From the NCBI GenBank assembly GCA_041665505.1, contig JBAYIR010000002.1, positions 11,602 to 75,601 of the forward strand: DNA of 64,000 nucleotides, read 5' to 3'. Of this stretch, positions 3,952-45,532 are shown piece by piece. The position numbers and the translations under genes are program-made. How positions within the stretch are numbered: the first letter of the stretch is position 1; each line of letters starts with the position of its first letter. The DNA comes from Patescibacteria group bacterium. Its GTDB lineage: Bacteria; Patescibacteriota; Patescibacteriia; UBA1558; GWA2-36-10. Below the pieces are notes generated by a model that worked only from the letters and a program-made list of their open reading frames with translations, had not been told where the DNA came from and ran no database searches.

Positions 3952-3986
3952 TATTAAAAAATTAATCATTAAAGAGAATAAAATAT

Positions 3987-15549: not shown

Positions 15550-15580
15550 ACACCCATTCGACTAGAATGGGTGTTTTTTG
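15550..15580 (+). terminator. Rho-independent terminator after typA (ACACCCATTCGACTAGAATGGGTGTTTTTTG)
   Basis: 7-8-bp stem plus T6; a near-identical copy lies at 16657-16687. Confidence 0.65.
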
Positions 15581-30085: not shown

Positions 30086-30089
30086 TTAT

Positions 30090-31064
30090 TTATTCCCCAG
30101 CATTAAAATAATTATAAACTTCCAAAGAAATATCATTAATTAAAGATTTACTTTTCTCTATCTCAATACCAGAGGTCATCACACAAATAAAGTAAGGATT
30201 TTGCTTATTATAAACAATACCACAATCATGCAAAGCATCATTTCGCTCACCATATTTATGGGACACTTGTATTTCCCAAGGTAATTTGGCAGATAGTAAG
30301 CCCTCTACTCTAGTGTCTGTCAGTAAAGTCAAAAGAGCTTGGGAGTTGGCTGGCTTAAGATAAGTACTAAAAAATAAAGCTTTAAACATTCGCTCATACT
30401 GACGCGGACTGATATTCTGGTTATCATAATCAGCTGTATAAGGATTTTCAATAGCGACATGCGTAAATACTGAATTGAGTTCCTCTGGGTCTAAACTACC
30501 TTTAAGAATATTTTTGGCAGTGTTGTCAGAAATTTTTAACATCCATTCCAATAATTGTTTAACCTTATAACTATGTCCAACTGTATAGCGATCTGGCACA
30601 CCAGCTTCTGTATCTATATCTTCTGCTCTAGCTATTAATTCATCATCTAAATTAATATCCCCTCCCTCATATTTTTTATATATGGCCATAGCAATTGGCA
30701 CTTTGAGTAAACTAGCTGGCACAAAACGTTCTGACTCATTGATGCCTAACCAGGCCCCAGTGTTGGCATCTTGAATATAAAAAGCTACTTTCTTGTCACT
30801 AGGTAGAGTGTCTAGCTGTTTTAATATTTTTTCTTTTAAGGGCACAAAATGTAGCAAGACGCGATCTGGGTCTTGATTGCTATCTAATGGTAAGGTTTTT
30901 ATATTATTACTCAACATGGTATAGCTATTATACCAATTTTGATATTCTAAACTTTGTTTATCATACAAAGCTTTTTGTTTTTTGAAAGCCCAATAAAACC
31001 AAACATTACTGGCTAACAACAAAATAATTAAAAATACCAAAATATATAAATGTTTTTTACCCAT
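30090..31064 (-). CDS. Serine hydrolase, class-A beta-lactamase / penicillin-binding-like, N-terminally anchored
   Basis: SxxK (ASLLKVP), SDN (KISDNTAKN) and a KxG-like region; a single N-terminal TM segment. Confidence 0.5.
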   Translation of the reverse strand: MGKKHLYILVFLIILLLASNVWFYWAFKKQKALYDKQSLEYQNWYNSYTMLSNNIKTLPLDSNQDPDRVLLHFVPLKEKILKQLDTLPSDKKVAFYIQDANTGAWLGINESERFVPASLLKVPIAMAIYKKYEGGDINLDDELIARAEDIDTEAGVPDRYTVGHSYKVKQLLEWMLKISDNTAKNILKGSLDPEELNSVFTHVAIENPYTADYDNQNISPRQYERMFKALFFSTYLKPANSQALLTLLTDTRVEGLLSAKLPWEIQVSHKYGERNDALHDCGIVYNKQNPYFICVMTSGIEIEKSKSLINDISLEVYNYFNAGE

Positions 31065-31074
31065 AATAATTTAA

Positions 31075-34000
31075 TTAACCTTCTATTTCTGTTATGTATT
31101 GCCCATAAATCCAGCCACTGATTTTATCATCGACTATAACCTTATACCAATTATAGCTATCATCAGCCACACTCTGTTTTTCTACAGCCTCAAATTTATC
31201 ACCACTATTCACTTGCGTCAAGATTTTAGCACTCTTACTGGGATTTTCTCGTAGATTCAACCAACCAGTTGGCGTATCTTTAACGATCAAATAAATAACT
31301 ACTACCTCCTCCACTCCTGTACTAGTGGCAGTACTAGAACTATTTCCTCCATCAGAAAATGATAAATCAATTAACTCATTATCTATATTCCCCGAAATAA
31401 CAAAATCATCAACTGCTTCATTAGTGACTAAATCGTTGACATTAGTAACTATAGCTTTATTATCGCTAGTAGCTATTATTTTATTTTTCAAAATCATTAT
31501 TTGTGACCTTAACAGATAAGCACTAAAGACTGCCAATATAATAATTAAGACTAACCAAACTATCTTACGATTTATTTTCTGCCAAATAAATTTGGTAAAA
31601 TTAACGTTTATTTTTTCTTCTATAGCTTCTATAGCTAATTTACTCACTTTCTTTTTAGCTCTAGTAGATTTTTTTGCTTTTGCCCCACTAGAAGCTACCA
31701 GTGGTTTTGGTTCGCCGGCAATAACTGCCATATTGCTCTGCAAAGCTAACTGACCATTGGCAATATTTATCTGATGTCGCCACATGGAGAAAAGTATAGT
31801 GACTAGTAGTGCGAAGCCAGTGACAAAAGCAATGATTATACCCCAAACTGAAACTGCTTGCATACCACCAAAGGCACCCAAAAATCCTTGAGAAGCATCA
31901 GCTTGTGTAACCAAAGCTTTTAATTCTTCTAAATCTTTGTTGACGGCACTTAAACTTTCTTTGTTCTCCCGATAAGTCATTATTTTATCTTGAGGCGAGG
32001 CAGTATTTTCTTTTTGGGTACGCAAAATCTTTTCTACTCTTTCATCAACGTCATTTTTTAGTAAAAGAGCTTGGGAAGAATATTGATTTTTTTGTAATTT
32101 TTTATAAAAATCACCAGCTTGAGCTTGAGCTAAACTCAAATCATTTTCCGCTATGAGCCAAATGTCACGCATCTTGATAAATTTTTTGACTGACTCACCT
32201 GGTTTAAGTTCAATTTCACCACTAGCAAATAATGTGTCCAATTGAATATCATACTGTATATTGAAACCGCCATCATCTATAATATGCTCAGTCTTGGCCT
32301 CTTTTGGTAAATAAATCTTAAACGGCACTTTTTGGGTAATTAAAGCTGGATTGGATATCATGATATTTAAATCGACTGATCCTGATGTATACCAAGTACT
32401 GACTATTGGTGAAGCAGTCTCTTGCACTACTTGTCTTTGGACATTAGCGACAGTTTTAAAATCAGCTATCTTATTACGGACATATTTGACATCATCCATA
32501 TTTTCTCTAGATACTGATAAAATGGTGTCTAAGGTATCATTATCTAGCCGTCCCAATTTTGTATTAATACTACTTATGGAACTAGAAATAGTACCCATAG
32601 CACTAAACATTTCTTCTGGCTTAAGATTATAAACATTAGTATGATTAGTAGTGCTACTGCCTGAGCCGACTTCAATATCATTAATACTTGTTTCTAAACT
32701 AGCAATACTAGCTTCAATATTATCTAATTGCGTTTTAATCAAAGCAATATCTTCCTTAATTAAAGTTACATCATCTTTTATACCAGCTACGTCTGATTGA
32801 ATGGTGTTTATTTTAGTGACTGGTACAGCTAGCTGTTTTAATATTGTAAAAGCATCACCGTTATTTGGCGCAAAAGGCAAATCTGGTTCTAGAATAATAG
32901 CTTTGGTCGTACCATTATAATCATCTATCCGCCTAGCCACTCCGCTATTTTGACCAGAAGTAAATGTCAATAAGGCATGAGTATACAAATCATCAACTGT
33001 ACTGGCTAAGTTACTTCCTAATAATGAAAGCGTGGAGGCAATCTCAGCTGTACTGACAGTAGATCGTATAGCAATCAAATCATCCGATAATAAATCAATT
33101 GTATTTTGTAAGGTGCTAATACCACTACTCAATGTCGTCTCAGTAGATTGTAAATTTGAAAGAGTGGCTAATGATCCACTATCCAAATTGGCACCTGATA
33201 AATAGCGTCCACTATAAGCCCAAACTGAGGCAGCATCTAAAGTAGCCGCATTTGAAGTTTGTGCTAAAATTGTAAAAGTATCAGCATCAGTCGGAGCTAA
33301 AGATAAAGCTGGATCAACTGTAATAGCCTTGGTCGTACCATTGTAAGCAGTGATACGTCTGACTTGGCCAACATTCATACCCGAGGTAAATAATAAAATA
33401 TTATTTTTATAAAAATCATTAGTAGCATTGGTCAGAGCAGTAGCAAAAACTGTAGTAGAAGGAGATAAATCAGCCACTGCCGTCTCCGCTACAATCAAAG
33501 CACTAATAATTTTGTCTAATTTAGCACTATTAGCACTAATAGCATTAGATAAAACTGTTTCCGTGGCTTGAATGTCTGATAAAGTAGCTAGTGACCCAGT
33601 GTCCAAAGTAGCTCCTGATAAATAACGGCTACCATAAGACCAAATAGCCGCTGCATCCACTGCTGAATTAGCTGTTTGGGCTAAAATAGTAAAGGTATCG
33701 GCATTGCTTGGAGCACTAGCTAAGGCTGGCGAAACAGTGATTTGTTTATTGGATCCAACATAGTCTGTAATACGACGAGCCTGGCCTGCATTAACGCCAG
33801 AAGTAAAGACTAAAACTCCATTGTTATAAAAATCATTAGAAGTACTAGTTAGAGTAGTAATAAATTGTGTATCACTTGCACCAGCATCATTAACAGCTTT
33901 TTGAGCAACAATTAAATTATTTATCAAAGTATCCAGCTGAGCACTCAAAGTAGTTTCAGTGCTTTCGATGTCTGATAAAGTAGCTAGTGACCCAGTGTCC

Positions 34001-37000
34001 AAAGTAGCTCCCGATAAATAACGACTACCATAAGACCAAATAGCTGCTGGATCTAAAGAAGCATTAGCCGTAGCTGCTAAAATTGTAAAAGTATCACCAT
34101 TAGCTGGCGCGGAATTTAAAGCTGGGTTGAGTGTTAGTTGTTTGGTAGCCCCAACATAATCAGTAATACGTCTGACTTGACCCGCATTAGCACCAGAGGT
34201 AAAGACTAAAACTCCATCATTATAAAAATCATCACTAGCACTAGCTAAAGTACTAATAAATTGAGTATTAGAAGCTCCAACATCATTGACCGCTTTTTCA
34301 GCAATAATTAAAGTAGCTATAAATTGATCTAAAGTGGCTTGTAAAGCCGCTAGATCACTAGCTGAGGCGCGAGAAGAAATAGTAACGTCAATATTAGTTT
34401 TTAATAAGGTGCCAATACTATCAACAGCTGTTATAGAAGTAAGTAGTGTATCCCATACCCTCTGAGCTGTCACATCACCGGCTGTCAACTCACGACTAGA
34501 ATAAGCCCAAACCGAAGCCGCTAAAGATGCTAGACCGTCATTTTCAATATCAGTAATTGTCCTAGTGGCTGCTGACCAGACATCAGTGGCTGTCAAATTA
34601 CTAATACCACGTGAAGATATAGTAGCATCTAAATTATCAGCTATTAATTTACCGATTGACCCATTTTGTGACAAGAGAGCTGAAGCTACATCCCATACTT
34701 GTGTCGGATCATCTAAGCTTACTCCTCCGGTCAAAGTGCGGACACCATATTCCCAAACTTGTTGGGCTGACAGGTTATTTAAAGCGGCAATAGCTTCATA
34801 ATTTTGTTGAATGCGTCCAAATAAAGTATCAGCACTGGATAAATCAGAAGGTGAACCCACTAAGGTTTCTAGGGTATCAACGTAACCCTCCATCTGATCA
34901 ACATAAGCTAATACTGACTGTAAATCTTGATAAGCTGAAGTCGATTGTCCATTGTAGCCTAATTCTGTTTGGACAGAATTTATCTTATTATAGGCGTCAT
35001 CAGCTTTGTTGAAAATAGCATCAGCTGTTTGAGTACCCCATTTTTCTTGTAAAAATTTACTGCGGCCAAACAAAGTATTGGCACTGGATAAATCTGTATG
35101 TTCACCAATTCTAGTCTGGACAGTAGTCAAAGACGAAATAATATCAGCCGCACTATAGGCTCCCCAATTAGCCACAATATCATCTACTTGAGTTCTAATA
35201 TATTGAGTATCTGTATAAATATCATCCACCTTAGCCTTTATATAAGTCACATCAGCTTGCAAGGTGGCAATCTCCGCACTAGTGGCCAGTGCTCCACCGC
35301 CTGACAAAGTAGCACTAGTCAGTTTTCTATCTACATATTCCCAGACTGCTTGAGCAATTTCTGCAGCTGAAGCTCCACCACCACTAGAGCTGACGTTGGA
35401 ATATTGGCTTAATACCACGAACTCATCATTAAAAGCTGGGGCAAATGGTAAAGCTGCATCTACTGTAATGGCTTTAGTAGTACCATTATAACTAGAAATA
35501 CGACGAGAAATACCAGCATTTTGACCAGACATCATAACCACAGTTTGATTCTGATAAAAGTTTGATGTCGCTTCAGTCAAATCAGTCACAAAAGTAGTAG
35601 CTGTAGCTGCCACATCGCTGACTAAACCTCTTTTGACAGCCAAACGATCATTGAGCAACTGACCAAAAGATCCATCAATATCAGCAAATGAACCAACTTG
35701 AGCTCCCCAAATACTAGAAGCTGTGAGTCCTGTAGACAACCAAGGTGAGACTGGCTGACCAGAAGAGAAAAAGTCTAGAGTACCAGTATCTACTGTGCCT
35801 GACAAAACAGAAACGTCATCTAAATAAACAAAAGGTCGTCTGAAAAGCTGATAGTCACCAGCAGTAGCATTGACCATGGTCGTGCTCTTTAAATGTGGTG
35901 CTACTATACCTTTTAAAAATAATATAGTTGGCGTATTTTTTACTACCTCAAAAATACGACCGTAAGTATCTTTAAATAAATAGCCAACCCATTGATTGGG
36001 TGTCCAAGATTTATCTACATCTTCCACCCATGGTGGTAAATAATTACCTAATGGATTAAATATCACTTCACTACTACCCTCATCTTCCACTACAAAAGAT
36101 GACTGCGCGGATATAGTCAAATCTGCCAAAGCAGATTCTGTTGGTGTACCAGAAACTACAAACTGTTGCCATTCATTAGCTGTGTCGGCAGCAGTCCAAG
36201 TCAAATTAGCACCAGTCATACCAAGACCTGACAAAGTAACTGTTGGTAAATTACTGGATCCATAATAACTATTAACTCGAATATAGCCCGTGACCGCTAG
36301 TGGCTCATTGGCCACACCAATAACTTTGGCTGAATATTCCAAAGGCACATCTGCACTTTGCGACTCCATACGCCAAGCATAACCACCAGGTGTATGCACG
36401 GTAGTGTCAATTAGACCAGCACCAGTAGTACGCATATTACCAAAAGTACTTTGATTGACTATATCTCTGGTACTACTAGAATAATTCATACGAATATCAG
36501 TACCTGGTATAGTACTAGCCATATAAGTATCCCCCAAACGAGACATATTATTATAATCTTGGGTGCCAAAAAATACTGGGCTCAAAATCTGCGTATCCAC
36601 ACCAGTAAACTGTAATAATGATTCTGCTTCAAAAGTTACAGTATTTGGTGGCATACTAATATCTGCTTCATTCCACATACCACGTCCAAAAATACTACCA
36701 TTATCAGTCACTGATACAGAAGAATAAGAAGGATGCGAACGGATACCTGAACCATATTCAGCACCAACTGTCACTGAACCATCAGAAACATGCCCATCAA
36801 AGGTATTATCAGACATATTAACAAAAGCATTACCATGCAAACGAATACCATTGGTATTTAAAGAAAATTTATTATCATTAATAGTGACCTTGGCAACGCC
36901 GACACCAAAGTTTAGTGCTCCAGATGTTCCAGCACCAGTCACACCATTATTATAAAATTCAGAATTAGCTACAGTATATAAACGACCAGACACAAAGGTC

Positions 37001-40000
37001 GCCGCACCACCGGCTGCTGCTGGCGGGGCAGTTACATAGGCATTACGATGACCCATGAAAATACTACCGTCAATACCAACATTTTGACTAGTAAAAGCGT
37101 TATAACCAGCGCCAATATTGGCTGCTCCCACATGAGTAGTCACAAAGTAAGCACCAACCATATTTGAGCCCTGAGTTTTAGCTATGACAGTATAAGCTCT
37201 GTCAAAATAGTTATAAAAAACTGATTTAGAAATTGTCTGTGTTGGGTATGGTGTTACCGAGGTATAAGGATTAGTAGTCACAGCAAAATTATTATACTGA
37301 TTTTCCATTGACAGATGATTCAAATTCATACTGGCTAGCCCGGCTAGACCCACTGCTGATACACCAAAACCAATTCCTTGATTTACCATATTAGCTGCTG
37401 CCAAAGTTGCACCAGTGTAAGAAATATCTTCATCTGACCAAATATGCGTACTGCGCTTGAGATTCAAAACTGGTGAATAAGTCGGACTAGAGCTGGAATC
37501 CCTAGCTGCTTTATGATGATAAGTAAAATTGTGTGACCAACCAGCTAAAGTGGCCGCTGTTCCATTTTCCTCATGACCAGAACCATATTTGATACGAGCC
37601 GAAGGAGTATATTTTTCTCCAGTATTATCTACCCAAACACGAGTGCGCTCTGGATAAGTAATTACCCTAATTCTTTCATTACCAGTATCAGCACCATTGG
37701 TAAAAATCATATTAGGACTACCCCAGGCATAATCAGCCCAAACCCAACCCTCTTGGGGATTCATAGCGCTGTCAAAACTAGCTCGATAAATATTTGTGCC
37801 AATACTGGAGCCACAACCAGCTGTTGCTCCTCCAGTCCAAATAGTTGCCGGTACTGTAAAATTACCAAAATTACAAGCATCAGAAGTATCTACTTCATAA
37901 TCAAAAATATTAAACTCATCAATCGCTCCATCAAAAGCGCCATTGTACTGCCAATTATTACCAAGTCTAATTAAACCAGCATTAGCACCACGGGCCGCTA
38001 AAGTCGTACCTTGGTTAGTTTCAAAAGCTACACCATCAAGCCAAGCTCGTTTAAAAGCCGTGGCTGTTTCTCGCCAAGCTACCCGTAAATGATGCCACTC
38101 GCCAGCCGTAGCTGAGAAGGTCTGCTGTAAGACAGTGCCTTGTACTGCACCAGCATAAATAGCTACCTCTAATTTACCATTAGTATTATGTCTGACAAAC
38201 AAACGATCCGTATCACCTTGGTTAGCGTAGTCAAGTAAATATTGACCATAAGGACTAGTGGAAGTTGCCGGTGAACCAGTATAATTAGTTTTAAACCAAA
38301 GATCTATTGTGCCATGTTGCCTAGCTGTAGCTGTGCCACTCTGACCTTCTATATTATAACGAGTGGCAATCGGACTACCAGTTGTCGCCCAAGTAGGTGG
38401 CATTAAAACTGCACTACCCATACCATTGACGCCAGTCCAAGCGCCATTATTTCTCAAATAATTATTTTGTAAAAGCAACATCCGATCACCAAACTTGGTG
38501 GCTGTTGGGTTACCAGAGTTTATACGCAAAGAAATTTTACTATCTGGTGCAGTATAAGTTGTACCTGGTGTAGCTGTACCAGCTGCACCTGTGGTACTGC
38601 CTGTGACTGTATAATTACTATTAGTCGGGTTCCACTCAAAATCCCAAACTTCATATTTAGTATTAGCATCACTAGTTGTAATACCTATACTATTATCTAA
38701 ACCCTTATAGCTCTTAATAGCGGTAGAGCTAATATAAATTTTATCTCCCACTTCAGGTCTGACTGTGCCATTCCAACCACCTTTATGTTTAATAGTAAAA
38801 TTTAAATAAGAACTAGTGAAAGGCACACTGGGATAAGCATTACCTATTGGTCCAGCACTTGATCCAACTAAACGCCAATAATCAGCATCATCAAAATTAT
38901 CGGCCCAGCCATTACTAGCACTCATAGAATCAAAAATCGCTTTGGTGCCAGCACCACTGGTCGCTGATCCTACATAAACACCTGTTTTACCAGTGGTGTA
39001 AGTAGCATTAGTAGTTGTAAAATCCCAAGAGCCTGGTTCGCCAGAATTGCAATCAGTAGTAGCCCAAAATTTGACACTTAGTGCTGTGCCTGTTACATCA
39101 GCTTTTAGACAATACCAAGTACTATCACTAAAAGCTTTGGTGGTTGGTGTGCCAATTACCGTTGGTACACCAGCTAAAGTAGTATAAAGCCCTACCGTGT
39201 TGGCGGCATTGGTCTTAGTAATTAAAGCAGCATAGCCATTACCATCAATACTCTGTCTCATTAAAAATCCTAAGCGACGTGAAGTAGCATCAGCTGCCAT
39301 ATCCATATAAACTAAGCCCGAAACAGTATAGTCAGTCGTATCTACATTGGTATTTTGAATATTAAGATGAGTCAAGTTTGTCTCATTGATATTCATCTGA
39401 CCATCTTTGATATGCCAAACATAAGGAGCTGACGGCGGCACAATAGCAGCCGCAGAATATTTGTGAGTTTCTATCCAACCTGGTGAATTACCATATTCTA
39501 AAGTAAATGTTTCATTGGGATTATAGCTCAAGCCAGTGGTAATCTGTCCAAGCTTAGCTTCTTGACTACCTGAAGATACATTAAGTACCCCCGAATCAAT
39601 ACGCTCTAGACCACTCATACCAATGGGTGTATTTTGATTAACTGGCGAAGTGGTCCAAGAAGTAAAACCAGAAATTCGCACCCTCACCCAATAGGCATTA
39701 ACTCCATTGATAGTAGTTTTGGCTGGAGTGCCAGTCAAATCATAAGGCGTCCAACTTAAAATGCGACGTGGAGAATTACCATTTTCTGTGAAAAAATTAC
39801 TAGGATTAAATGATTTCCACTGTCCGCCATTGAGACGAGAAATCGTAGCTGACTGAGCTGTAGTATAGTCAGCCGTCACTGGCTCCGTAAAAGTAATAAC
39901 ACCCGCAGCGACCGCACTAATACGCCTATAGATTGGGCTAGAATCATTATCATCTATCATTACTACTTGATCAACGCCAAAGTTGGCTTGATTACCAGAT

Positions 40001-43000
40001 GTCACTGACACAGTATAAGAATTTCTAGTGGTGTTGGCAGATAATGGTACGCTATGTCCTGTACGTGTTTGATATTTATAAGCATCACGCGGTGTAAAAC
40101 TAGTCCAACCAGCCCCATTATAAAACTCCCAAGTGAATAGTGCTGAGGAGTTCATCAGCGTACCCAGATTTGCTTCCAAAGAATACATCATGTTGGTACC
40201 TTGATCACCAAAATATATAGCATCGTTTAACTCAGTATTAGCTCCATCACCAAATAAAGTCCAAGTAGTAGAACTAGCATAATTTGCCGAATACAATGGT
40301 GAACCACCATTGTAATCAGCATTATAAACATTAGTGACTGGTATAGTGCCAATTTCTGCTGTCTCAGTATTTGGTGTTGGCAAAGCATTACGACCCAAGC
40401 CGGCCAGGCCAGTCCAAACTGGGAATTGATTAATATCATCAGTGCCACCCATTCTGACAGAAGACAAATTATTATCTACTACTTGATTGGTAGCACCAGC
40501 TACTGTGATATTATCTAGTGGCTGCCAATTACCCACTACATTGTCTTTGACATCCACCCAAGTAGCTCCAGCATCAGTGGAATTATTACCCAAATAGCCA
40601 GTATCAATATTACCGTCAATATCAACAGCCAAGTCACTTTTCATAGTGCGAAAATCATCACTACCTTGACCATACAGATTGACCCTACCAGTTCTATTGT
40701 TATCTTGCGTGCCGGCATTAGTACCAGTTAGTCCTGTCATAGTATATACTCCTGCTCGCCTATCTGTACCAGTTGGTAATTCTGTCTGTGGACCCTTGGC
40801 AGCATAGGCACCTTGAGCCACTGTATAGCCAGTCACCAAAGCAGCTGTCAAAGTAATAACCGTAGAACTCTCCACTGCTGCTACAATCCTAGTAGTAGCC
40901 ACTGAGTCATTATCATCAATTATGATTGTGTCTCCTGGAGCAAAATTACTAGTGGAAGCTACAGTCAGAGTGACAGTAGCTGGCGAGTCAATAGTTAAAA
41001 GTGAAGAAGCAGCTGGTGAAACATTATCAAAATAAATATCCGCATGTGTAGAAGCTGGTAGTGGATCAGTACTATCACCAAAAGCCAAAGTAGCATCAGA
41101 ATCCAAAACAATTTTACCAGGAATAGTGATACGATAATGTTGATTAGCTGTGTCAGCAATAGTCAATTTTGAACCCGGTGTCACAAGAGCTGATACCCAA
41201 CCACCATTATAAGAATAAGCAGCAAAATTACCTCTAGTTCCAGCACCATCGCCAATAGCTGCACCATAATTACCAGTATAAGCTAGAGCCGCATCCCAAG
41301 AGCGATCAATACTGACTACATGTTGGGCTTTGTTGAGCCAGACATAATCATTGGTCAAATTTGTCGAATCAGCTGTATCAGAATTATTAGCCCCATTACC
41401 AACTATCACAATATCACCATCAGCTGGAGCATCAGTATTGGCATCACCATAAGCTACAAAGAAAATATGTCTATTAGATAAAAAAGGATAATTAGTTAGT
41501 GAGGTTGCTACAGCTTGACTCTTGGCATAAGCCAAAACCACTGAGGTAGTACGAGCTAATTGCGAATTTAAGCCAATTGGATTTTGGGTAAAATTATAAG
41601 AAGTAAAACGCAAAACATCACCATCGCTTGGTGTTCCAACATTAGATAGGTTAGCTGAAATCTCAGCTATTCTAGCCCCCTCAGCCACAGTAAAAGCAGT
41701 AGTTAAATTGGCTGCTAAAATAATAGATGGACCACTGGAAGGACAAGCTCCATCAGAAGCGTTGGTGCTGGCAATACGATGTGTCACAATTGGTGCTGTA
41801 TTATTGTCCCAAATCTGGACACTAGCTGCTGTACCAACTGCTGCTGAAAAACCGTCAATACTAGCTACACAAACACGAGTAGAGACAGCTGAATCAGCAG
41901 TCAAAGTAGTAATAGCACCTTGGACTATTCTATTTTTCCAGATAGCCTGAGCAACTGTGGCATTTTTGCTAGTAGTAAAACCAGTTGTAGTCGCGGCCGT
42001 TGTGACAATAGCTGGACCATTGCTGCAACTAGCATGAGAGTTGGTCACTGAAGCTACGGTCAAAGCCACTGTAGCTGTATCAGCATCCCATAAATTAATA
42101 GTTTGATTAATAGAAAAACCACTAGTTGAAGCTACACATAAAACAGTGCTAGCAGTAGAATCAAGAGTCAGAGTAGTCAAAGGTACACCATCATTAACCC
42201 AAGCAGCGCCCGTGCCACCAGTGGTGGGTGTAGTTAATTTATTTGTTTGCGTACCAGAGACAGTACCGGCTAAAGTCCAATTAGAATTACTAGAAGAATA
42301 AGTAGCTGTCCAATGCTCATTTTGTGTCCTTCTAACCGTTGGTAAACCCACACCAGCAGCTGAATTGGCAGCGACCATAGCAGCCGCTGTCAAGCCATTA
42401 TGTGCAGCTAAAACTTTTGGCATAGTAATAGTTGGTGCATTGACCAAGTCTATATCATTAGCACCAATAGTTCTTATTGTACCATTTACTGTCGGAAAAT
42501 CTCCATAAGGTGCATTAGCTGCCCAAGTACCAAATACTGGTGTACCAGCACCCATATTAATTATTCTAATACCATAATGGGCACCAGAGGTGACTGCTAA
42601 CTCTGGATCAAAACGAAAATCAAAAGTACCACGACCATATTGACCAGGCGCTAGATTTTCACCAGACAAACCCTTATTAAACTGTATAGCTGCTCTTCTC
42701 AAAACAACAGTATCACTCGGATAGGTATAAGCACCTTGGGTGCCAGAGACATAGTTAGAACAAGAAGTAGTACAAGTTGCTGTTGGAAAGCTCAAAAGCT
42801 CGGCTACAATATCCACATTGGATAAAGAAGTGATAGTTAAATTTTCTAAAATCAACTGTACACCACGTAAATTACCACTAGCGCTAGGCTTAAAACCAAT
42901 AAATTGAGCGGCCGCATAAGTAGCGGTTGCACCAACTGCCACATGACCCAAAGCCAAAGCTCCAGCCGCACCATCAGTCACCGATGGTCCGGGATGAATA

Positions 43001-43926
43001 GGATTAAAAGTACCGGCCTCGGCATCACCATTTACACCATCACCAGAATAAGCCATAGCTGTATACCAAGAGCCGTTAGTGGATAGAGTAGTAGTACCAG
43101 CTGATACCTTGACCGCTCCTGTAAAAGTAGCGGCATAAGCTGGTGTATCATTTTTAAATAACCAATTAAATAAAGGTGTAAAAGAAGTAATACCTAAGGT
43201 ACTAACAATTATAGAAAAAACCAGCCAAGAGGCCATAGTCCGACGTAAAAGTATTTGTCTTGGCTCTCTTAATAGCTGTTTAAAGTCCGCCAAATTGAGC
43301 ACTGGTTGCATAGCCAATCTAGCTTGTCTATTTTTTGGTATTATTTTTTTCTCATAATAATCTGGCACAAAACGAACTAAAGGTTTTACTATCCATAATA
43401 AAAATAATTTGAATTCGCCTAGTCTGATTTTAAAATTATTTTTAAACTCTGCCCGATGGTCTAAAAGATAGCTGGCTCTTGGTCCAAAAAATCCCAAAAA
43501 TTTAACAAAAAATAAACTTATCCCGTACCAAGTAATTTTTAATAACAAAAATAAAAATAAATAAAGCCCTTTAAATATAGAAAAAACTCCTAGGGCAATA
43601 TTTTTTACTAAAAAACGTAATGATATTTCTACAATTGGCAATTTAGTTTTAACCAAACGGCTAAAATCATTAACTCTTGGCCAAAAATCACGCTTCAGAA
43701 AAGATGAAACTCTAGGTAAAAGCCACTTAAAGAATAAAAATAAATTTTTACCAATAAAAACAAGGCTAATAAATAATATATAGCCTATAAGTACTAAAGC
43801 TGAGGTGATTATTTTGGCCAACCAGACTAAAAAATAAACAAATAACTCTAATAATATCAGCGCCTTTTTAGTAGTTTGTTTACCATGACGCCTAAATTGC
43901 CAAACCGGCCAAGAATGTTTTTTCAT
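31075..43926 (-). CDS. Giant (4283-aa) membrane-anchored surface protein with LamG/ConA-like domain, repeated ~135-aa modules, coiled-coil region, two C-proximal TM segments and a C-terminal SH3b domain
   Basis: Single uninterrupted ORF. The N-terminal ~250 aa are polytopic. The product is Thr/Ser/Ala/Gly-rich. A LamG-like block is present (…WHHLRVAWRE…NGAFDGAIDEFNIF). Four to five FTSGxNAGQxRRIxDYxG modules are seen. The C-terminal SH3b-like block reads GWLNLRENPSKSAKILTQVNSGDKFEAV…YNWYKV. Confidence 0.8.
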   Translation of the reverse strand: MKKHSWPVWQFRRHGKQTTKKALILLELFVYFLVWLAKIITSALVLIGYILFISLVFIGKNLFLFFKWLLPRVSSFLKRDFWPRVNDFSRLVKTKLPIVEISLRFLVKNIALGVFSIFKGLYLFLFLLLKITWYGISLFFVKFLGFFGPRASYLLDHRAEFKNNFKIRLGEFKLFLLWIVKPLVRFVPDYYEKKIIPKNRQARLAMQPVLNLADFKQLLREPRQILLRRTMASWLVFSIIVSTLGITSFTPLFNWLFKNDTPAYAATFTGAVKVSAGTTTLSTNGSWYTAMAYSGDGVNGDAEAGTFNPIHPGPSVTDGAAGALALGHVAVGATATYAAAQFIGFKPSASGNLRGVQLILENLTITSLSNVDIVAELLSFPTATCTTSCSNYVSGTQGAYTYPSDTVVLRRAAIQFNKGLSGENLAPGQYGRGTFDFRFDPELAVTSGAHYGIRIINMGAGTPVFGTWAANAPYGDFPTVNGTIRTIGANDIDLVNAPTITMPKVLAAHNGLTAAAMVAANSAAGVGLPTVRRTQNEHWTATYSSSNSNWTLAGTVSGTQTNKLTTPTTGGTGAAWVNDGVPLTTLTLDSTASTVLCVASTSGFSINQTINLWDADTATVALTVASVTNSHASCSNGPAIVTTAATTTGFTTSKNATVAQAIWKNRIVQGAITTLTADSAVSTRVCVASIDGFSAAVGTAASVQIWDNNTAPIVTHRIASTNASDGACPSSGPSIILAANLTTAFTVAEGARIAEISANLSNVGTPSDGDVLRFTSYNFTQNPIGLNSQLARTTSVVLAYAKSQAVATSLTNYPFLSNRHIFFVAYGDANTDAPADGDIVIVGNGANNSDTADSTNLTNDYVWLNKAQHVVSIDRSWDAALAYTGNYGAAIGDGAGTRGNFAAYSYNGGWVSALVTPGSKLTIADTANQHYRITIPGKIVLDSDATLAFGDSTDPLPASTHADIYFDNVSPAASSLLTIDSPATVTLTVASTSNFAPGDTIIIDDNDSVATTRIVAAVESSTVITLTAALVTGYTVAQGAYAAKGPQTELPTGTDRRAGVYTMTGLTGTNAGTQDNNRTGRVNLYGQGSDDFRTMKSDLAVDIDGNIDTGYLGNNSTDAGATWVDVKDNVVGNWQPLDNITVAGATNQVVDNNLSSVRMGGTDDINQFPVWTGLAGLGRNALPTPNTETAEIGTIPVTNVYNADYNGGSPLYSANYASSTTWTLFGDGANTELNDAIYFGDQGTNMMYSLEANLGTLMNSSALFTWEFYNGAGWTSFTPRDAYKYQTRTGHSVPLSANTTRNSYTVSVTSGNQANFGVDQVVMIDDNDSSPIYRRISAVAAGVITFTEPVTADYTTAQSATISRLNGGQWKSFNPSNFFTENGNSPRRILSWTPYDLTGTPAKTTINGVNAYWVRVRISGFTSWTTSPVNQNTPIGMSGLERIDSGVLNVSSGSQEAKLGQITTGLSYNPNETFTLEYGNSPGWIETHKYSAAAIVPPSAPYVWHIKDGQMNINETNLTHLNIQNTNVDTTDYTVSGLVYMDMAADATSRRLGFLMRQSIDGNGYAALITKTNAANTVGLYTTLAGVPTVIGTPTTKAFSDSTWYCLKADVTGTALSVKFWATTDCNSGEPGSWDFTTTNATYTTGKTGVYVGSATSGAGTKAIFDSMSASNGWADNFDDADYWRLVGSSAGPIGNAYPSVPFTSSYLNFTIKHKGGWNGTVRPEVGDKIYISSTAIKSYKGLDNSIGITTSDANTKYEVWDFEWNPTNSNYTVTGSTTGAAGTATPGTTYTAPDSKISLRINSGNPTATKFGDRMLLLQNNYLRNNGAWTGVNGMGSAVLMPPTWATTGSPIATRYNIEGQSGTATARQHGTIDLWFKTNYTGSPATSTSPYGQYLLDYANQGDTDRLFVRHNTNGKLEVAIYAGAVQGTVLQQTFSATAGEWHHLRVAWRETATAFKRAWLDGVAFETNQGTTLAARGANAGLIRLGNNWQYNGAFDGAIDEFNIFDYEVDTSDACNFGNFTVPATIWTGGATAGCGSSIGTNIYRASFDSAMNPQEGWVWADYAWGSPNMIFTNGADTGNERIRVITYPERTRVWVDNTGEKYTPSARIKYGSGHEENGTAATLAGWSHNFTYHHKAARDSSSSPTYSPVLNLKRSTHIWSDEDISYTGATLAAANMVNQGIGFGVSAVGLAGLASMNLNHLSMENQYNNFAVTTNPYTSVTPYPTQTISKSVFYNYFDRAYTVIAKTQGSNMVGAYFVTTHVGAANIGAGYNAFTSQNVGIDGSIFMGHRNAYVTAPPAAAGGAATFVSGRLYTVANSEFYNNGVTGAGTSGALNFGVGVAKVTINDNKFSLNTNGIRLHGNAFVNMSDNTFDGHVSDGSVTVGAEYGSGIRSHPSYSSVSVTDNGSIFGRGMWNEADISMPPNTVTFEAESLLQFTGVDTQILSPVFFGTQDYNNMSRLGDTYMASTIPGTDIRMNYSSSTRDIVNQSTFGNMRTTGAGLIDTTVHTPGGYAWRMESQSADVPLEYSAKVIGVANEPLAVTGYIRVNSYYGSSNLPTVTLSGLGMTGANLTWTAADTANEWQQFVVSGTPTESALADLTISAQSSFVVEDEGSSEVIFNPLGNYLPPWVEDVDKSWTPNQWVGYLFKDTYGRIFEVVKNTPTILFLKGIVAPHLKSTTMVNATAGDYQLFRRPFVYLDDVSVLSGTVDTGTLDFFSSGQPVSPWLSTGLTASSIWGAQVGSFADIDGSFGQLLNDRLAVKRGLVSDVAATATTFVTDLTEATSNFYQNQTVVMMSGQNAGISRRISSYNGTTKAITVDAALPFAPAFNDEFVVLSQYSNVSSSGGGASAAEIAQAVWEYVDRKLTSATLSGGGALATSAEIATLQADVTYIKAKVDDIYTDTQYIRTQVDDIVANWGAYSAADIISSLTTVQTRIGEHTDLSSANTLFGRSKFLQEKWGTQTADAIFNKADDAYNKINSVQTELGYNGQSTSAYQDLQSVLAYVDQMEGYVDTLETLVGSPSDLSSADTLFGRIQQNYEAIAALNNLSAQQVWEYGVRTLTGGVSLDDPTQVWDVASALLSQNGSIGKLIADNLDATISSRGISNLTATDVWSAATRTITDIENDGLASLAASVWAYSSRELTAGDVTAQRVWDTLLTSITAVDSIGTLLKTNIDVTISSRASASDLAALQATLDQFIATLIIAEKAVNDVGASNTQFISTLASASDDFYNDGVLVFTSGANAGQVRRITDYVGATKQLTLNPALNSAPANGDTFTILAATANASLDPAAIWSYGSRYLSGATLDTGSLATLSDIESTETTLSAQLDTLINNLIVAQKAVNDAGASDTQFITTLTSTSNDFYNNGVLVFTSGVNAGQARRITDYVGSNKQITVSPALASAPSNADTFTILAQTANSAVDAAAIWSYGSRYLSGATLDTGSLATLSDIQATETVLSNAISANSAKLDKIISALIVAETAVADLSPSTTVFATALTNATNDFYKNNILLFTSGMNVGQVRRITAYNGTTKAITVDPALSLAPTDADTFTILAQTSNAATLDAASVWAYSGRYLSGANLDSGSLATLSNLQSTETTLSSGISTLQNTIDLLSDDLIAIRSTVSTAEIASTLSLLGSNLASTVDDLYTHALLTFTSGQNSGVARRIDDYNGTTKAIILEPDLPFAPNNGDAFTILKQLAVPVTKINTIQSDVAGIKDDVTLIKEDIALIKTQLDNIEASIASLETSINDIEVGSGSSTTNHTNVYNLKPEEMFSAMGTISSSISSINTKLGRLDNDTLDTILSVSRENMDDVKYVRNKIADFKTVANVQRQVVQETASPIVSTWYTSGSVDLNIMISNPALITQKVPFKIYLPKEAKTEHIIDDGGFNIQYDIQLDTLFASGEIELKPGESVKKFIKMRDIWLIAENDLSLAQAQAGDFYKKLQKNQYSSQALLLKNDVDERVEKILRTQKENTASPQDKIMTYRENKESLSAVNKDLEELKALVTQADASQGFLGAFGGMQAVSVWGIIIAFVTGFALLVTILFSMWRHQINIANGQLALQSNMAVIAGEPKPLVASSGAKAKKSTRAKKKVSKLAIEAIEEKINVNFTKFIWQKINRKIVWLVLIIILAVFSAYLLRSQIMILKNKIIATSDNKAIVTNVNDLVTNEAVDDFVISGNIDNELIDLSFSDGGNSSSTATSTGVEEVVVIYLIVKDTPTGWLNLRENPSKSAKILTQVNSGDKFEAVEKQSVADDSYNWYKVIVDDKISGWIYGQYITEIEG
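32700..34700 (-). repeat. Internal tandem repeat array (about 4-5 units of ~410 nt) inside the giant gene
   Basis: Near-identical DNA blocks are visible (e.g. AGTGACCCAGTGTCCAAAGTAGCTCC[CT]GATAAATAAC recurs at ~33590 and ~33995); protein units are ~135 aa each. Confidence 0.55.
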
Positions 43927-44085
43927 ATTTATTTTATTGATTTTTTACCGCTATATTATAACATAGTTTTAAGTTTTTTCATAACAATTTATCACAAAAA
44001 AATAAGACCTTCCGCACTCTAAGATCTTTGATATAAATTTATATATAAAATTTTATTTTAGCTCAGCTACGAAATATAAAATAGG

Positions 44086-44721
44086 CTATTTTTTATTCTT
44101 AAACTTTATAAATATGAAAAATAAGGCCGCTAGCAACCAAATAAAAAATAAAACTAAACATAAATAAAAAGTAGTATCTTTTATTTCCCAGAGGGATAAA
44201 GCTCTTTGCCAAATAGCCCCTAAATAACTAAGCTCTCTAACATTAAAATTAATATAGGCAGTAGCCTCGGCATTATCACTAACATCGGATACAACATTTT
44301 TTGATTGCACCAATAATTGTCCTTGATAATCCCCTGCTTTTAAATTAAGGGGTAATTGTAAGTTTAAATTTATCTGCTGAGCTTTGCCTGCTTCTAAAAA
44401 CAACTCCTTTGGCCATAAATGGAATTTTTCATTACTATTATTTTTGTCCAAATAAAAAAACAAATTAGTATCTAAGACTTCATCACCAATATTTATTATG
44501 GTCAATTTATCAATACTAATAATTTCCCCCGGAGAAACTACTGGGCCGACATTATATTCTTTAGCTGAAAAAATAATATTTTTAAAAGCCTTTGAGCCAG
44601 TTGGCCAAATGATTAAAAAAATAAAAACTATTATCTTAGCTAATTTGGACAAATTAAAAAAATATCTGCTTCCAAAATTATTAATCATCATCTTCCTCCT
44701 CATCGTCATCTCCCCTACCAA
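44086..44721 (-). CDS. Hypothetical membrane-anchored extracytoplasmic protein (N-terminal signal/TM, C-terminal TM); last gene of the NOX/cyt-b5 cluster
   Basis: 211-aa ORF; overlaps the upstream gene by 41 nt, so the true start is probably one of the internal Met residues (MMINN...). Confidence 0.4.
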   Translation of the reverse strand: MVGEMTMRRKMMINNFGSRYFFNLSKLAKIIVFIFLIIWPTGSKAFKNIIFSAKEYNVGPVVSPGEIISIDKLTIINIGDEVLDTNLFFYLDKNNSNEKFHLWPKELFLEAGKAQQINLNLQLPLNLKAGDYQGQLLVQSKNVVSDVSDNAEATAYINFNVRELSYLGAIWQRALSLWEIKDTTFYLCLVLFFIWLLAALFFIFIKFKNKK

Positions 44722-45523: not shown

Positions 45524-45532
45524 AAATTTATA

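What the first reader, a model, noticed from the sequence alone, without database searches (positions are those of the whole stretch)
31075..43926. 12.9-kb single ORF encoding a 4283-aa membrane-anchored giant surface protein
The ORF is uninterrupted for 12,852 nt in an AT-rich genome. The predicted topology is a polytopic N-terminal ~250 aa, then a ~3700-aa Thr/Ser/Gly/Ala-rich ectodomain with a LamG/ConA-like jelly-roll block and repeated modules. A coiled-coil stretch, two TM helices and a C-terminal SH3b-like cell-wall/host-binding domain follow. Giant proteins of this type are hallmark candidates for host-attachment in episymbiotic small-genome bacteria. It is encoded next to a serine hydrolase and a PrsW-like membrane protein, which may be processing or partner genes.
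Basis: partly seen in the sequence, partly recalled or inferred. Interest (0 to 1): 0.6.

Follow-up and report, generated by a model that had tools for sequence, protein, structure and literature searches.

The report
Giant membrane-anchored surface fibre protein
A real 4283-residue gene of an ultra-small (Patescibacteria, probably Moranbacteria) bacterium encodes a long surface fibre with a lectin-like head. It is anchored by a C-terminal membrane hairpin plus a cell-wall-binding SH3 domain, and it always sits next to a tiny PrsW-type membrane protease that probably processes it.

Summary
The ORF is real. It runs 31075-43926 on the minus strand (4283 aa). An ortholog of 4281 aa from an independent sequencing run gives dN/dS 0.067 at dS 0.40. 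Collinear uninterrupted reading frames of 3731-4303 codons (stop to stop) occur at 11 other loci.

- N-terminal hydrophobic segments, of which only the last is conserved. It is followed by a conserved signal-peptidase-like site.
- An all-beta head of about 2400 aa, nearly gap-free across species. It holds two LamG jelly-rolls, a beta-helix and four copies of a new small repeat.
- A length-variable stalk of Ile-rich heptad coiled coils and five Phage_BR0599-like modules.
- A conserved anchor module with no Pfam or PDB match, then TM1, a basic loop, TM2 and SH3b.

The head family is rare: 35 hits among 1.84 billion representatives and 11 loci among 185,579 species genomes, two of them labelled Moraniibacteriota.

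The new point is the neighbour. A 129-159-aa PrsW-family protein with intact EE..K and H...N motifs lies beside every anchor-bearing relative examined (16 of 16) and beside neither of two anchor-less relatives. TM1 carries an invariant GG.Q....WGI motif.

Best reading: a probably trimeric, wall-tethered adhesion fibre that this dedicated protease matures or sheds. Adhesion and cleavage are both inferred, not shown.

The parts
31075..43926 (-). Giant gene, 4283 codons plus stop
   Evidence: purifying selection against the L002 ortholog; uninterrupted frames at 11 other loci
43955..43982 (-). Promoter-like site (ATGAAA, 16-nt spacer, TG-TATAAT) about 29 nt upstream of the ATG. It follows a hairpin plus T-run that I read by eye after the upstream gene.
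   Evidence: a consensus match only, and the number of such sites in the region is no higher than in shuffles
43237..43926 (-). aa 1-230: variable N-terminal extension. Basic loops and two hydrophobic stretches (aa 21-70 and 109-144), each long enough for a hairpin.
   Evidence: identity 0.20 with 43% gaps across species; dN/dS 0.23
43129..43236 (-). aa 231-266: conserved signal-anchor helix ending in AYA|A, followed by TFTG. Predicted signal-peptidase-I site.
   Evidence: position -1 is Ala in all 12 aligned sequences and FT(G/N) follows; cleavage is inferred
35827..43128 (-). aa 267-2700: conserved all-beta head
   Evidence: identity 0.48-0.65 with at most 5% gaps across 10 species; AF2 models are all beta but low confidence
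41977..42207 (-). R1, a small repeat of about 80 aa with a Cys pair (C597/C634)
   Evidence: hhalign R1-R2 probability 99.6
41692..41946 (-). R2 repeat (C686/C728)
40807..40998 (-). R3 repeat
   Evidence: R1-R3 probability 98.5
39832..40014 (-). R4 repeat
   Evidence: R3-R4 probability 98.6
38857..39396 (-). aa ~1511-1690: first LamG/ConA-like jelly-roll (no Pfam hit)
   Evidence: AF2 pLDDT 60-78 in this stretch; Foldseek aligns about 500 columns to tandem laminin LG4-5 pairs, E 1.6e-8
37882..38331 (-). aa 1866-2015: Laminin_G_3 jelly-roll
   Evidence: Pfam 46.4 bits against a cut-off of 27.6; matched by 7 of 9 family members; Foldseek
36577..37176 (-). aa ~2251-2450: right-handed beta-helix region
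   Evidence: Pfam Beta_helix in 3 family members, best E 1e-10, but not in this copy; assigned here through the nearly gap-free family alignment, which is 57% identical in this region
32377..35826 (-). aa 2701-3850: stalk of helical and heptad segments alternating with beta modules; its length varies between species
   Evidence: (BR-1 identity 0.65; the remainder, aa 2851-3850, identity 0.27-0.41 with 12-34% gaps)
35386..35658 (-). BR1, Phage_BR0599-like module
   Evidence: self-BLAST repeat; hhalign BR1-BR2 probability 99.9
34057..34311 (-). BR2
   Evidence: Pfam Phage_BR0599, whole protein 75.9 bits against a cut-off of 22.9, best stretch aa 3234-3284
33667..33927 (-). BR3
   Evidence: self-BLAST repeat; sequence shown
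33241..33498 (-). BR4
   Evidence: self-BLAST repeat; sequence shown
32833..33093 (-). BR5
32623..32820 (-). aa 3703-3768: seven near-perfect heptads, mostly Ile at both core positions (trimer-type coiled coil)
   Evidence: read directly from the sequence; periodicity score 0.92 against a 99.5th-percentile null of 0.52; weak match to a trimeric adhesin fragment, 2wpr, E 0.14
31777..32529 (-). aa 3800-4050: conserved anchor module. By eye it reads as a beta-rich stretch (aa ~3851-3950), then helices, then TM1 with the invariant GG.Q....WGI motif and a W(R/K)xx stop-transfer.
   Evidence: alignment A5; no PDB relative; no Pfam family; shared with P0007, P0009, P0010, P0011, P0014, P0023, P0025, P0026, P0032, P0034 and P0039; motif present in all 12 family sequences
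31582..31776 (-). aa 4051-4115: basic loop, predicted cytoplasmic
   Evidence: 11 K+R against 4 D+E; poorly conserved, identity 0.18
31486..31581 (-). aa 4116-4147: TM2
   Evidence: not sequence-conserved, identity 0.17
31282..31485 (-). aa 4148-4215: acidic, polar extracytoplasmic linker
   Evidence: 2 K+R against 11 D+E
31093..31260 (-). aa 4223-4278: SH3b (SH3_3) domain
   Evidence: Pfam E 4.9e-11; matched by 7 of 9 family members
30090..31064 (-). 324-aa serine hydrolase (Beta-lactamase2, class-A-like) with a hydrophobic N-terminus read as a membrane anchor. SLLK and SDN motifs are present; no (K/H)(T/S)G motif.
   Evidence: a homolog lies near the giant gene at 9 of 13 loci
29639..30085 (-). 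148-aa minimal PrsW-family intramembrane glutamic protease (EE..K, SEN..Y, H..T and H...N motifs)
   Evidence: Pfam 21.0 bits here; orthologs score 27.7-37.9 against a cut-off of 23.5; invariant motifs; beside 16 of 16 anchor-module genes
44086..44721 (-). 211-aa protein with hydrophobic segments at both ends, upstream of the giant gene. Membership in the unit is doubtful.
   Evidence: conserved only at L002 (called there as two genes of 83 and 105 aa) and weakly at L017

Best explanation
The gene encodes a cell-surface fibre of a Patescibacteria (probably Moranbacteria) cell.

Proposed mechanism, all inferred from sequence:
1. The precursor is exported by Sec through a signal-anchor helix (aa 231-253) and is probably cut at the conserved AYA|A site. 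This frees an N-terminal, all-beta, lectin-like head of about 2400 aa. The head holds two LamG jelly-rolls, a beta-helix, four small R domains and several unassigned beta domains.
2. The head is carried on a stalk of about 1100 aa. The stalk is made of Ile-rich heptad coiled coils interrupted by five BR0599-like modules, so the protein is probably a trimer.
3. The C-terminal end is held by a conserved juxtamembrane module, a TM1-basic loop-TM2 hairpin and an external SH3b domain that binds the cell's own peptidoglycan.
4. The fibre binds a conserved glycan or surface ligand on a partner cell or substrate.
5. The adjacent minimal PrsW-type glutamic intramembrane protease acts on the anchor, most likely at or near the invariant GG.Q....WGI motif at the outer end of TM1. 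It either matures the fibre or sheds it.
6. The co-located membrane-anchored serine hydrolase (class-A beta-lactamase/PBP-like) probably remodels peptidoglycan around the insertion site.
For: Shown here:
- The gene is real and under purifying selection along its whole length.
- Hydropathy and charge give the topology N-in, ectodomain out, basic loop in, SH3b out.
- LamG_3, SH3_3 and BR0599 pass the Pfam cut-offs. A tandem LamG fold match has E 1.6e-8. Beta_helix matches in three homologs.
- Cys residues occur only in pairs in the head, none after aa 2038. This fits an extracytoplasmic domain.
- Heptad segments lie only in aa 2876-3807. Seven near-perfect heptads carry mostly Ile at both core positions.
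- The signal-anchor plus xA|(A/D)(T/P/D)FT(G/N) site is present in all 12 family sequences.
- The head is conserved and nearly gap-free, the stalk varies in length, and TM1 is conserved (0.51) while TM2 is not (0.17).
- A PrsW-like gene is adjacent at 13 of 13 giant-gene loci and also beside the distant anchor-bearing proteins P0034, P0011 and P0023. It is absent near the anchor-less relatives P0024 and P0008.
- Its catalytic-type motifs are invariant, and five orthologs exceed the Pfam cut-off.

From the literature:
- Giant membrane proteins of a CPR predator are thought to mediate host attachment (PMC8080830).
- A CPBP-family glutamic intramembrane protease sorts surface proteins that carry a motif-TM-basic signal, sometimes as a two-gene enzyme-target pair (PMC11980579).
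Against: - No binding, localisation, oligomeric state or cleavage has been observed.
- AF2 models of aa 261-2660 are poor (mean pLDDT 43 and 48). About 1500 aa of the head have no assigned fold.
- The uniformly conserved head is not what an arms-race host-recognition protein would show.
- If the protease cut at TM1, the ectodomain would be separated from its SH3b anchor. This needs an extra assumption: non-covalent retention, transfer to another anchor, or regulated shedding.
- The motif-TM-basic element is internal, not C-terminal as in known sorting signals.
- The window's own PrsW-like copy scores below the Pfam cut-off (21.0 against 23.5).
- Many of the loci come from one clade, so part of the synteny could be inherited rather than selected. 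However, gene order and orientation differ between loci.
Confidence: 0.55

Rival explanations
1. It is a structural envelope component rather than a host adhesin. On this reading the fibre spans or organises the cell's own wall or surface layer, or holds sister cells together. The PrsW-like protease and the serine hydrolase then serve envelope biogenesis.
For: - The head is strongly conserved and nearly gap-free across 10 species, and dN/dS is 0.03-0.05 in the head.
- The SH3b wall tether fits an envelope role.
- Wall enzymes lie nearby: Beta-lactamase2 and Peptidase_S11.
Against: - The head family is confined to very few species: 11 loci among 185,579 genomes and 35 hits among 1.84 billion representatives. 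A core envelope part would be expected more widely.
- Lectin-type LamG domains and a beta-helix are typical ligand-binding parts.
- The stalk length varies freely between species.
Confidence: 0.2
2. It is an enzyme-carrying weapon or feeding fibre. On this reading the beta-helix and jelly-roll block is a polysaccharide lyase or hydrolase that attacks a host envelope, and the PrsW-like protease releases it.
For: - Beta_helix matches in homologs.
- Foldseek lists CBM-bearing lyases and glycosidases among its weaker hits: alginate lyase 5zu5, arabinanase 5ho2, levanase 6r3u.
- Giant genes of predatory bacteria have been linked to cell-wall degradation (bioRxiv 10.1101/2023.11.21.568195).
Against: - No catalytic family passes any threshold in Pfam, NCBIfam or the PDB sequence search.
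- The lyase and glycosidase fold hits are explained by the shared jelly-roll.
- No catalytic residues could be identified.
Confidence: 0.12
3. It is a domesticated phage tail fibre, or part of a phage- or tailocin-like particle.
For: - Phage_BR0599 modules.
- PHROG 778, 'tail assembly protein', E 1.4e-11.
- TIGR02218, the baseplate hub family, E 1.1e-10.
- A coiled-coil fibre architecture.
Against: - TIGR02218 scores 41.6 bits against a cut-off of 80.5.
- tblastn of two repeat units against 50,697 phage records finds nothing.
- The neighbours are housekeeping genes at every locus, with no capsid, tail or terminase genes.
- The protein has a signal anchor, a TM hairpin and SH3b, which are features of a cell-envelope protein.
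Confidence: 0.03
4. It is an artefact: a chimeric assembly, collapsed repeats, or a run of shorter genes read as one.
For: - The assembly is a short-read MEGAHIT contig.
- One relative (L003) has an in-frame TGA.
- Two relatives (L009, L013) are interrupted by runs of N.
Against: - An independent run gives the same ORF at 91% nucleotide identity with dN/dS 0.067.
- Eleven other loci have uninterrupted collinear frames.
- The DNA repeats are at most 78% identical.
- The chance of such an ORF arising at random is about 1e-127.
Confidence: 0.01

Closest known systems
Giant membrane and surface proteins of CPR bacteria, for example the 1392-4163-aa proteins of Vampirococcus lugosii (PMC8080830)
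   Same: Very large, membrane-localised, adhesion-domain-rich proteins in a small-genome Patescibacteria cell. They are proposed, not shown, to mediate host recognition and attachment.
   Different: The domain content differs. Here it is LamG x2, a beta-helix, R repeats, a BR0599/coiled-coil stalk, a TM hairpin and SH3b. The paper lists WD40, PKD, DUF11, integrin and fibronectin domains. I made no sequence comparison with those proteins. This family is confined to a small clade.
Dedicated intramembrane glutamic protease and surface-protein pairs: myxosortase MrtX with MYXO-CTERM, and MrtJ with JDVT-CTERM (PMC11980579; bioRxiv 10.1101/2023.06.07.544157)
   Same: A small polytopic protease with EE and H...N motifs is encoded next to its presumed single target. 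The target carries a conserved short motif, then a TM helix, then basic residues.
   Different: The protease here belongs to the PrsW Pfam family, not CPBP, and is only 129-159 aa long. The motif has no invariant Cys. The element is internal, followed by a loop, TM2, a linker and SH3b, about 230 aa in all. Cleavage is untested.
Bacillus subtilis PrsW, the site-1 protease of the anti-sigma factor RsiW (from my own knowledge)
   Same: The same Pfam family (PF13367). The conserved motifs are retained, and the presumed substrate is a membrane protein with an extracytoplasmic domain.
   Different: No sigma or anti-sigma module sits at the locus. The presumed substrate is a 4283-aa surface protein whose cytoplasmic loop is poorly conserved. 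The protease is about two-thirds the length of the Pfam model, matching positions 47-174 of 196.
Phage and gene-transfer-agent baseplate hub proteins (TIGR02218; Pfam Phage_BR0599)
   Same: The BR0599-type module is detected in the stalk at 75.9 bits for the whole protein.
   Different: Only that one domain is shared. The TIGR02218 score is below its cut-off. Here the domain is repeated five times in a stalk, not present once in a hub. There is no phage context.
Trimeric fibrous adhesins, that is trimeric autotransporter adhesins (from my own knowledge)
   Same: A head-stalk-anchor design, with coiled-coil segments carrying Ile at the core positions interrupted by small beta modules. There is a weak match to a SadA fragment construct (2wpr, E 0.14).
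   Different: There is no match to any beta-barrel translocator family, and I expect no outer membrane in this lineage (own knowledge). The anchor is a TM hairpin plus SH3b. The weak PDB match may reflect only heptad composition.

Membership tests
Pfam Laminin_G_3 (ConA-like lectin/glucanase superfamily) | The profile match exceeds the gathering score. | tested here: met
   46.4 bits against 27.6, aa 1869-2012; 7 of 9 family members match; Foldseek hits tandem LamG pairs at E 1.6e-8
Pfam SH3_3 (bacterial SH3) | The profile match exceeds the gathering score. | tested here: met
   43.1 bits against 27, aa 4223-4278. Peptidoglycan binding itself was not tested.
Pfam Phage_BR0599 | The profile match exceeds the gathering score. 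| tested here: met
   75.9 bits against 22.9, four stretches; five copies by self-comparison
Phage/GTA baseplate hub protein (TIGR02218 equivalog) | A full-length match above the curated cut-off. | tested here: not met
   41.6 bits against 80.5; only profile positions 151-221 of 266 match
Phage tail fibre or prophage component | Phage structural genes lie in the neighbourhood, or there is similarity to phage records. | tested here: not met
   Housekeeping neighbours; tblastn against phage records finds no match
Sortase-anchored (LPXTG) Gram-positive surface protein | A C-terminal LPXTG-type motif followed by a TM helix and a basic tail. | tested here: not met
   No [LN]Px[TSA][GNDA] motif anywhere in the protein
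Trimeric autotransporter adhesin | A C-terminal beta-barrel translocator anchor. | tested here: not met
   No such family appears among the Pfam hits at E up to 1; the C-terminus is a TM hairpin plus SH3b
RTX/Bap-type giant adhesins exported by type I secretion | RTX nonapeptide repeats and a C-terminal secretion signal. | tested here: not met
   No RTX or calcium-binding repeat family appears in Pfam or NCBIfam; an N-terminal signal anchor is present instead
PrsW family intramembrane protease (the neighbour gene) | A Pfam PF13367 match above the gathering score. | tested here: inconclusive
   The window copy scores 21.0 against 23.5. Orthologs at L018, L011, L017, L014 and L019 score 37.9, 34.9, 31.1, 28.7 and 27.7.
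PrsW family intramembrane protease (the neighbour gene) | Conserved glutamate pair and histidine motifs (EE..K/R and H...N/D). | tested here: met
   EE..K, SE(N/S)..Y, R, H..T and H...N are invariant in 14-16 aligned sequences
PrsW family intramembrane protease (the neighbour gene) | Proteolytic activity on a membrane-protein substrate. | not testable with these tools
   Needs a co-expression and cleavage assay.
C-terminal sorting-signal systems (sortase, exosortase, rhombosortase, myxosortase type) | A tripartite signal (motif, TM helix, basic cluster) at the extreme C-terminus. | tested here: not met
   A motif (GG.Q....WGI), a TM helix and W(R/K)xx are present, but about 230 aa follow: a loop, TM2, a linker and SH3b
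C-terminal sorting-signal systems (sortase, exosortase, rhombosortase, myxosortase type) | A dedicated processing enzyme co-occurs with the signal. | tested here: met
   A PrsW-like gene lies beside 16 of 16 anchor-module genes and 0 of 2 anchor-less relatives. The sample is small.
Diversity-generating-retroelement target | A nearby template/variable repeat pair and a reverse transcriptase. | tested here: not met
   No near-identical repeat pair in 30000-45000; no reverse-transcriptase family among the neighbours

The most novel reading that the evidence does not exclude
The conserved anchor module (GG.Q....WGI motif, TM1, basic stop-transfer) together with the always-adjacent minimal PrsW-type protease may be a previously undescribed, Patescibacteria-specific surface-protein sorting or release system. 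On this reading the protease recognises an internal tripartite signal and cuts it. That converts a hairpin-anchored precursor into a mature fibre, which is either kept at the wall through the SH3b fragment or shed on demand. The giant protein would be only its largest client. Smaller clients of 950-1700 aa carry other heads, such as MG2.
Probability: 0.3. Interest if true: 0.7.

Novelty: new variant of a known kind. Interest (0 to 1): 0.5.

Why it matters
Patescibacteria make up a large share of bacterial diversity, and all cultivated ones live attached to other cells. Beyond type IV pili, little is known about the molecules that build their surface and make contact. This locus gives three things:
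- a well-validated, deeply conserved giant surface protein with a clear head-stalk-anchor plan;
- a new anchor module with no Pfam or PDB relative;
- a concrete, testable enzyme-substrate hypothesis, a 129-159-aa PrsW-type protease paired with that anchor.

The hypothesis could be tested in E. coli without culturing the organism. If it holds, it would add a monoderm, PrsW-based member to the short list of prokaryotic protein-sorting systems. It would also give a sequence handle, the anchor plus its protease, for finding surface proteins across these genomes.

Tried and rejected
- The search for homologous proteins with the full protein timed out. With aa 1461-2660 it returned nothing. That tool never returned any protein longer than 1874 aa, not even the query's own parent, so I treat its negatives as weak.
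- AF2 on aa 261-1460 and aa 1461-2660 with shallow alignments of 11 and 8 sequences gave mean pLDDT 43 and 48.
The recurring weak hits to phage tail-tip proteins and small beta-barrels were not pursued because the model is poor. The second model only confirmed the LamG pair.
- PDB sequence searches found no relatives, either with the whole protein or with the anchor profile.
- tblastn of two stalk repeats against the phage collection found nothing.
- hhalign found no relationship between the R repeats and the BR0599 modules. The best pair, R4-BR1, reached a probability of 37%.
- A search for DGR-type repeats was negative.
- The promoter and terminator scans found no more sites than shuffled sequence.
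- Rfam found only one tRNA-Ser in the window.
- I considered TGA recoding for the in-frame stop at L003. I rejected it because the neighbouring genes there read normally under the standard code.
Full report
**1.

The window contains one ORF on the minus strand at 31075..43926, with an ATG start and 4283 codons. With the gene's own base composition, the chance of 4283 stop-free codons is about 1e-127.

The exact protein is on a 188.5-kb ENA metagenome contig (ERZ27249449, k141_1380258). It is deposited at NCBI as MFA6466582.1, 'MAG: LamG-like jellyroll fold domain-containing protein [Patescibacteria group bacterium]'.

Its 90%-identity cluster holds a second protein of 4281 aa, from an independent Logan assembly of run SRR28219341 (locus L002). 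The two differ at 212 residues and 1194 of 12849 aligned nucleotides, with a single 2-codon indel and no frameshift. Nei-Gojobori dN/dS is 0.067 at dS 0.40. It stays between 0.03 and 0.23 in each of ten segments.

The internal DNA repeats are at most 78% identical over 300 nt, so short-read collapse is unlikely.

**2. The family and the organism**

A full HMMER scan of 1.84 billion representative proteins with aa 261-1460 found only 35 hits at E up to 1e-3, and nine below 1e-30. These include full-length proteins of 4253, 3726 and 3639 aa. They are collinear with the query from about aa 180 to 2890 and again in the C-terminal anchor.

A scan of one genome from each of 185,579 species found 11 loci:
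- Two are labelled Candidatus Moraniibacteriota.
- Two are labelled 'Patescibacteria group'.
- One lies on a complete 945-kb chromosome.
- Several carry automated labels that look wrong, such as 'uncultured Gammaproteobacteria'.

Uninterrupted stop-to-stop frames of 3731-4303 codons are present at 11 loci other than the window. The exceptions are one in-frame TGA (L003) and two loci with runs of N.

So this is a rare but well-conserved gene of a small clade, probably Moranbacteria. The assignment rests on record titles only. I made no marker-gene phylogeny.

**3. Anatomy, from N to C**

*N-terminal region (aa 1-266).*
- Hydropathy finds hydrophobic stretches at aa 21-70 and 109-144, each long enough for a hairpin, and a single helix at aa 231-253.
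- The intervening loops are strongly basic: 7/0, 9/3 and 18/7 K+R against D+E.
- Across the family only the last helix is conserved. It is always followed by x-A|(A/D)(T/P/D)-F-T-(G/N)-x-(V/I)-x-(V/I)-S. Position -1 is Ala in all 12 aligned sequences, and position -3 is a small or aliphatic residue in the six I tabulated.
- I read this as a signal-peptidase-I site. That is an inference.
- The upstream extension varies in length (the FTG motif lies at residue 99-314 of the stop-to-stop frames). It has 43% gaps and the highest dN/dS, 0.23.

*Head (aa 267-2700).*
- Both AF2 models are all beta, but confidence is low (mean pLDDT 43 and 48).
- Four copies of a new repeat of about 65-85 aa are homologous to one another, with hhalign probabilities of 86-99.6%. 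Two of them carry a Cys pair.
- There are two LamG/ConA-like jelly-rolls. One passes Pfam at aa 1869-2012. The other, at aa ~1511-1690, is seen only by fold: Foldseek aligns about 500 columns to laminin LG4-5 pairs at E 1.6e-8.
- A right-handed beta-helix sits at aa ~2251-2450. Pfam Beta_helix matches three homologs, best E 1e-10, but not this copy.
- Roughly 1500 aa have no assigned fold.
- All ten Cys lie in the head, in pairs.

*Stalk (aa 2701-3850).*
- Five Phage_BR0599-like modules are present (75.9 bits for the whole protein against a cut-off of 22.9).
- They are separated by helical linkers that carry a recurring (I/V)W.Y..R.L(T/S) motif.
- Heptad-periodic segments occur nowhere else in the protein.
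- At aa 3703-3751 there are seven near-perfect heptads, mostly Ile at both core positions. From general coiled-coil knowledge this favours trimers, but the oligomeric state is not shown.

*Anchor (aa ~3800-4050).*
- By eye it reads as a beta-rich stretch, then two helices, then TM1.
- It has no Pfam family and no PDB sequence relative.
- TM1 begins with F(L/I)(G/A)x(F/I/L/V)GG(M/I)Q....WGI and ends with W(R/K)xx. The GG.Q....WGI core is present in all 12 species-level sequences.

*C-terminal end (aa 4051-4283).*
- A basic loop (11 K+R against 4 D+E), then TM2, then an acidic linker (2 against 11), then SH3_3 at aa 4223-4278.
- The predicted topology puts the ectodomain and the SH3b domain outside and the basic loop inside.

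**4. Conservation pattern**

Across ten species, excluding the near-identical L002:
- Every head segment is 48-65% identical to the query, with at most 5% gaps.
- The first stalk module, BR-1, is as conserved as the head (0.65).
- The rest of the stalk (aa 2851-3850) is 27-41% identical with 12-34% gaps, so its repeat number changes.
- TM1 is conserved (0.51).
- TM2 (0.17), the cytoplasmic loop (0.18) and the linker (0.13) are not.

The head therefore does something that is constrained along its whole length. The stalk acts as a spacer. TM1 has a sequence-specific role beyond membrane insertion.

**5. The neighbours**

On the same strand, separated by 10 and 4 nt, lie two genes:
- A 324-aa protein of the Beta-lactamase2 family. 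It has a hydrophobic N-terminus, SLLK and SDN motifs, and no (K/H)(T/S)G motif.
- A 148-aa protein weakly matching PrsW-protease (21.0 bits against 23.5).

Homologs of the small protein lie next to the giant gene at all 13 loci that could be evaluated. Their order and orientation differ, and the surrounding contexts are otherwise unrelated at L004 and L007.

The same small gene sits immediately downstream of three much shorter and more distant proteins that share only the stalk and anchor modules: P0034, P0011 and P0023. It is absent within 6 kb of two relatives that have stalk modules but no anchor, P0024 and P0008. That gives 16 of 16 against 0 of 2.

The aligned small proteins keep EE..K, SE(N/S)..Y, R, H..T and H...N invariant. 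Five orthologs exceed the Pfam cut-off.

The serine hydrolase is linked less tightly, at 9 of 13 loci.

**6. Mechanism**

Shown here:
- a real, selected gene;
- the predicted topology;
- the domain identities listed above;
- heptad periodicity in the stalk;
- the conservation pattern;
- the gene linkage.

Inferred:
- Sec export and signal-peptidase cleavage, which would leave the conserved head at the free distal end;
- trimerisation of the stalk;
- SH3b binding to the cell's own peptidoglycan;
- ligand binding by the lectin-like head, probably to a glycan on another cell or surface;
- action of the PrsW-type protease on the anchor, most plausibly near the invariant Gly-Gly at the outer end of TM1.

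The last point has a precedent. A CPBP-family glutamic intramembrane protease, myxosortase, cleaves a motif-TM-basic signal to sort surface proteins. A related enzyme occurs in a conserved two-gene pair with its single target (PMC11980579).

There is one open difficulty. Cutting at TM1 would separate the ectodomain from SH3b. So the outcome (maturation with retention, hand-over to another anchor, or shedding) cannot be decided from sequence.

**7. Rivals**

- *Structural envelope role.* This fits the very conserved head and the wall enzymes nearby. It fits poorly with the narrow distribution of the family.
- *Enzymatic weapon.* This rests only on the beta-helix and jelly-roll folds. No catalytic family was detected.
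- *Phage origin of the whole gene.* I reject this. The hub equivalog fails its cut-off. There is no phage context at any locus. tblastn against 50,697 phage records finds nothing.
- *Artefact.* Rejected for the reasons in section 1.

**8. Comparison and novelty**

Giant membrane proteins proposed to mediate host attachment have been described for a CPR predator (PMC8080830). The kind is therefore known, and this protein already has a generic NCBI annotation.

As far as I could find, four things are new:
- the specific head-stalk-anchor plan, including a stalk built from repeated BR0599 modules;
- the R repeat;
- the anchor module, which has no family;
- the strict pairing of the anchor with a minimal PrsW-type protease.

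I file it as a new variant of a known kind and score interest at 0.5. The most novel reading that the evidence does not exclude is a new PrsW-based sorting or release system for Patescibacteria surface proteins. I give that a probability of about 0.3.

Noticed in passing
L003:9953-9955: The giant ortholog on JGI contig Ga0172379_10001031 is called as two genes of 1819 and 1842 aa. They are in the same frame and separated by a single in-frame TGA inside the second LamG domain, and homology continues across the stop. This could be a sequencing error, a recent nonsense mutation or read-through; it is undecided.
   Followed up: partly
L020:4206-9895 and L022:4879-11133: Two shorter proteins with the same stalk modules lie directly downstream of tatC-tatA genes. 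P0011 has the anchor and P0008 lacks it. This hints that some members of the wider family are Tat-linked.
   Followed up: no
window 58457-61816 (-): A 1119-aa protein with no Pfam match. It has N-terminal hydrophobic segments and a C-terminal stretch that to my eye resembles a peptidoglycan-binding repeat (not tested). It is probably another surface protein of the same cell.
   Followed up: partly
window 44086-44721 (-): A 211-aa protein with hydrophobic segments at both ends and a KFKNKK tail lies directly upstream of the giant gene. It is called as two genes of 83 and 105 aa at L002 and has only a 32%-identical counterpart at L017, so it is probably not part of the conserved unit.
   Followed up: partly
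window 44681-46849 (-): A tandem cytochrome-b5-domain protein (280 aa) sits next to a ferric-reductase/NOX-type flavocytochrome (438 aa: Ferric_reduct, FAD_binding_8 and NAD_binding_1). This membrane redox pair is not what I would expect in a fermentative small-genome bacterium. It is conserved at L002.
   Followed up: no
window 9899-11134 (+) and 18258-19490 (+): Two paralogous HI0933-like flavoproteins lie within 9 kb of each other.
   Followed up: no
window 7546-9477 (-), 15578-16642 (+), 19493-21181 (-): Three further proteins of 643, 354 and 562 aa have no Pfam match. The 562-aa one has about nine predicted transmembrane segments.
   Followed up: no
L008, L009, L010, L013, L018 (record titles): Several genomes that carry this Patescibacteria-type giant gene and its neighbours are titled 'uncultured Gammaproteobacteria' or 'Bdellovibrionales' in automated TPA MAG records. 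These are probably taxonomic mislabels.
   Followed up: no
alignment A1 members: One family member also matches Peptidase_M32 (carboxypeptidase Taq, E 1.6e-26). This could be a fused gene call or a real extra domain. I did not identify which member it is.
   Followed up: no
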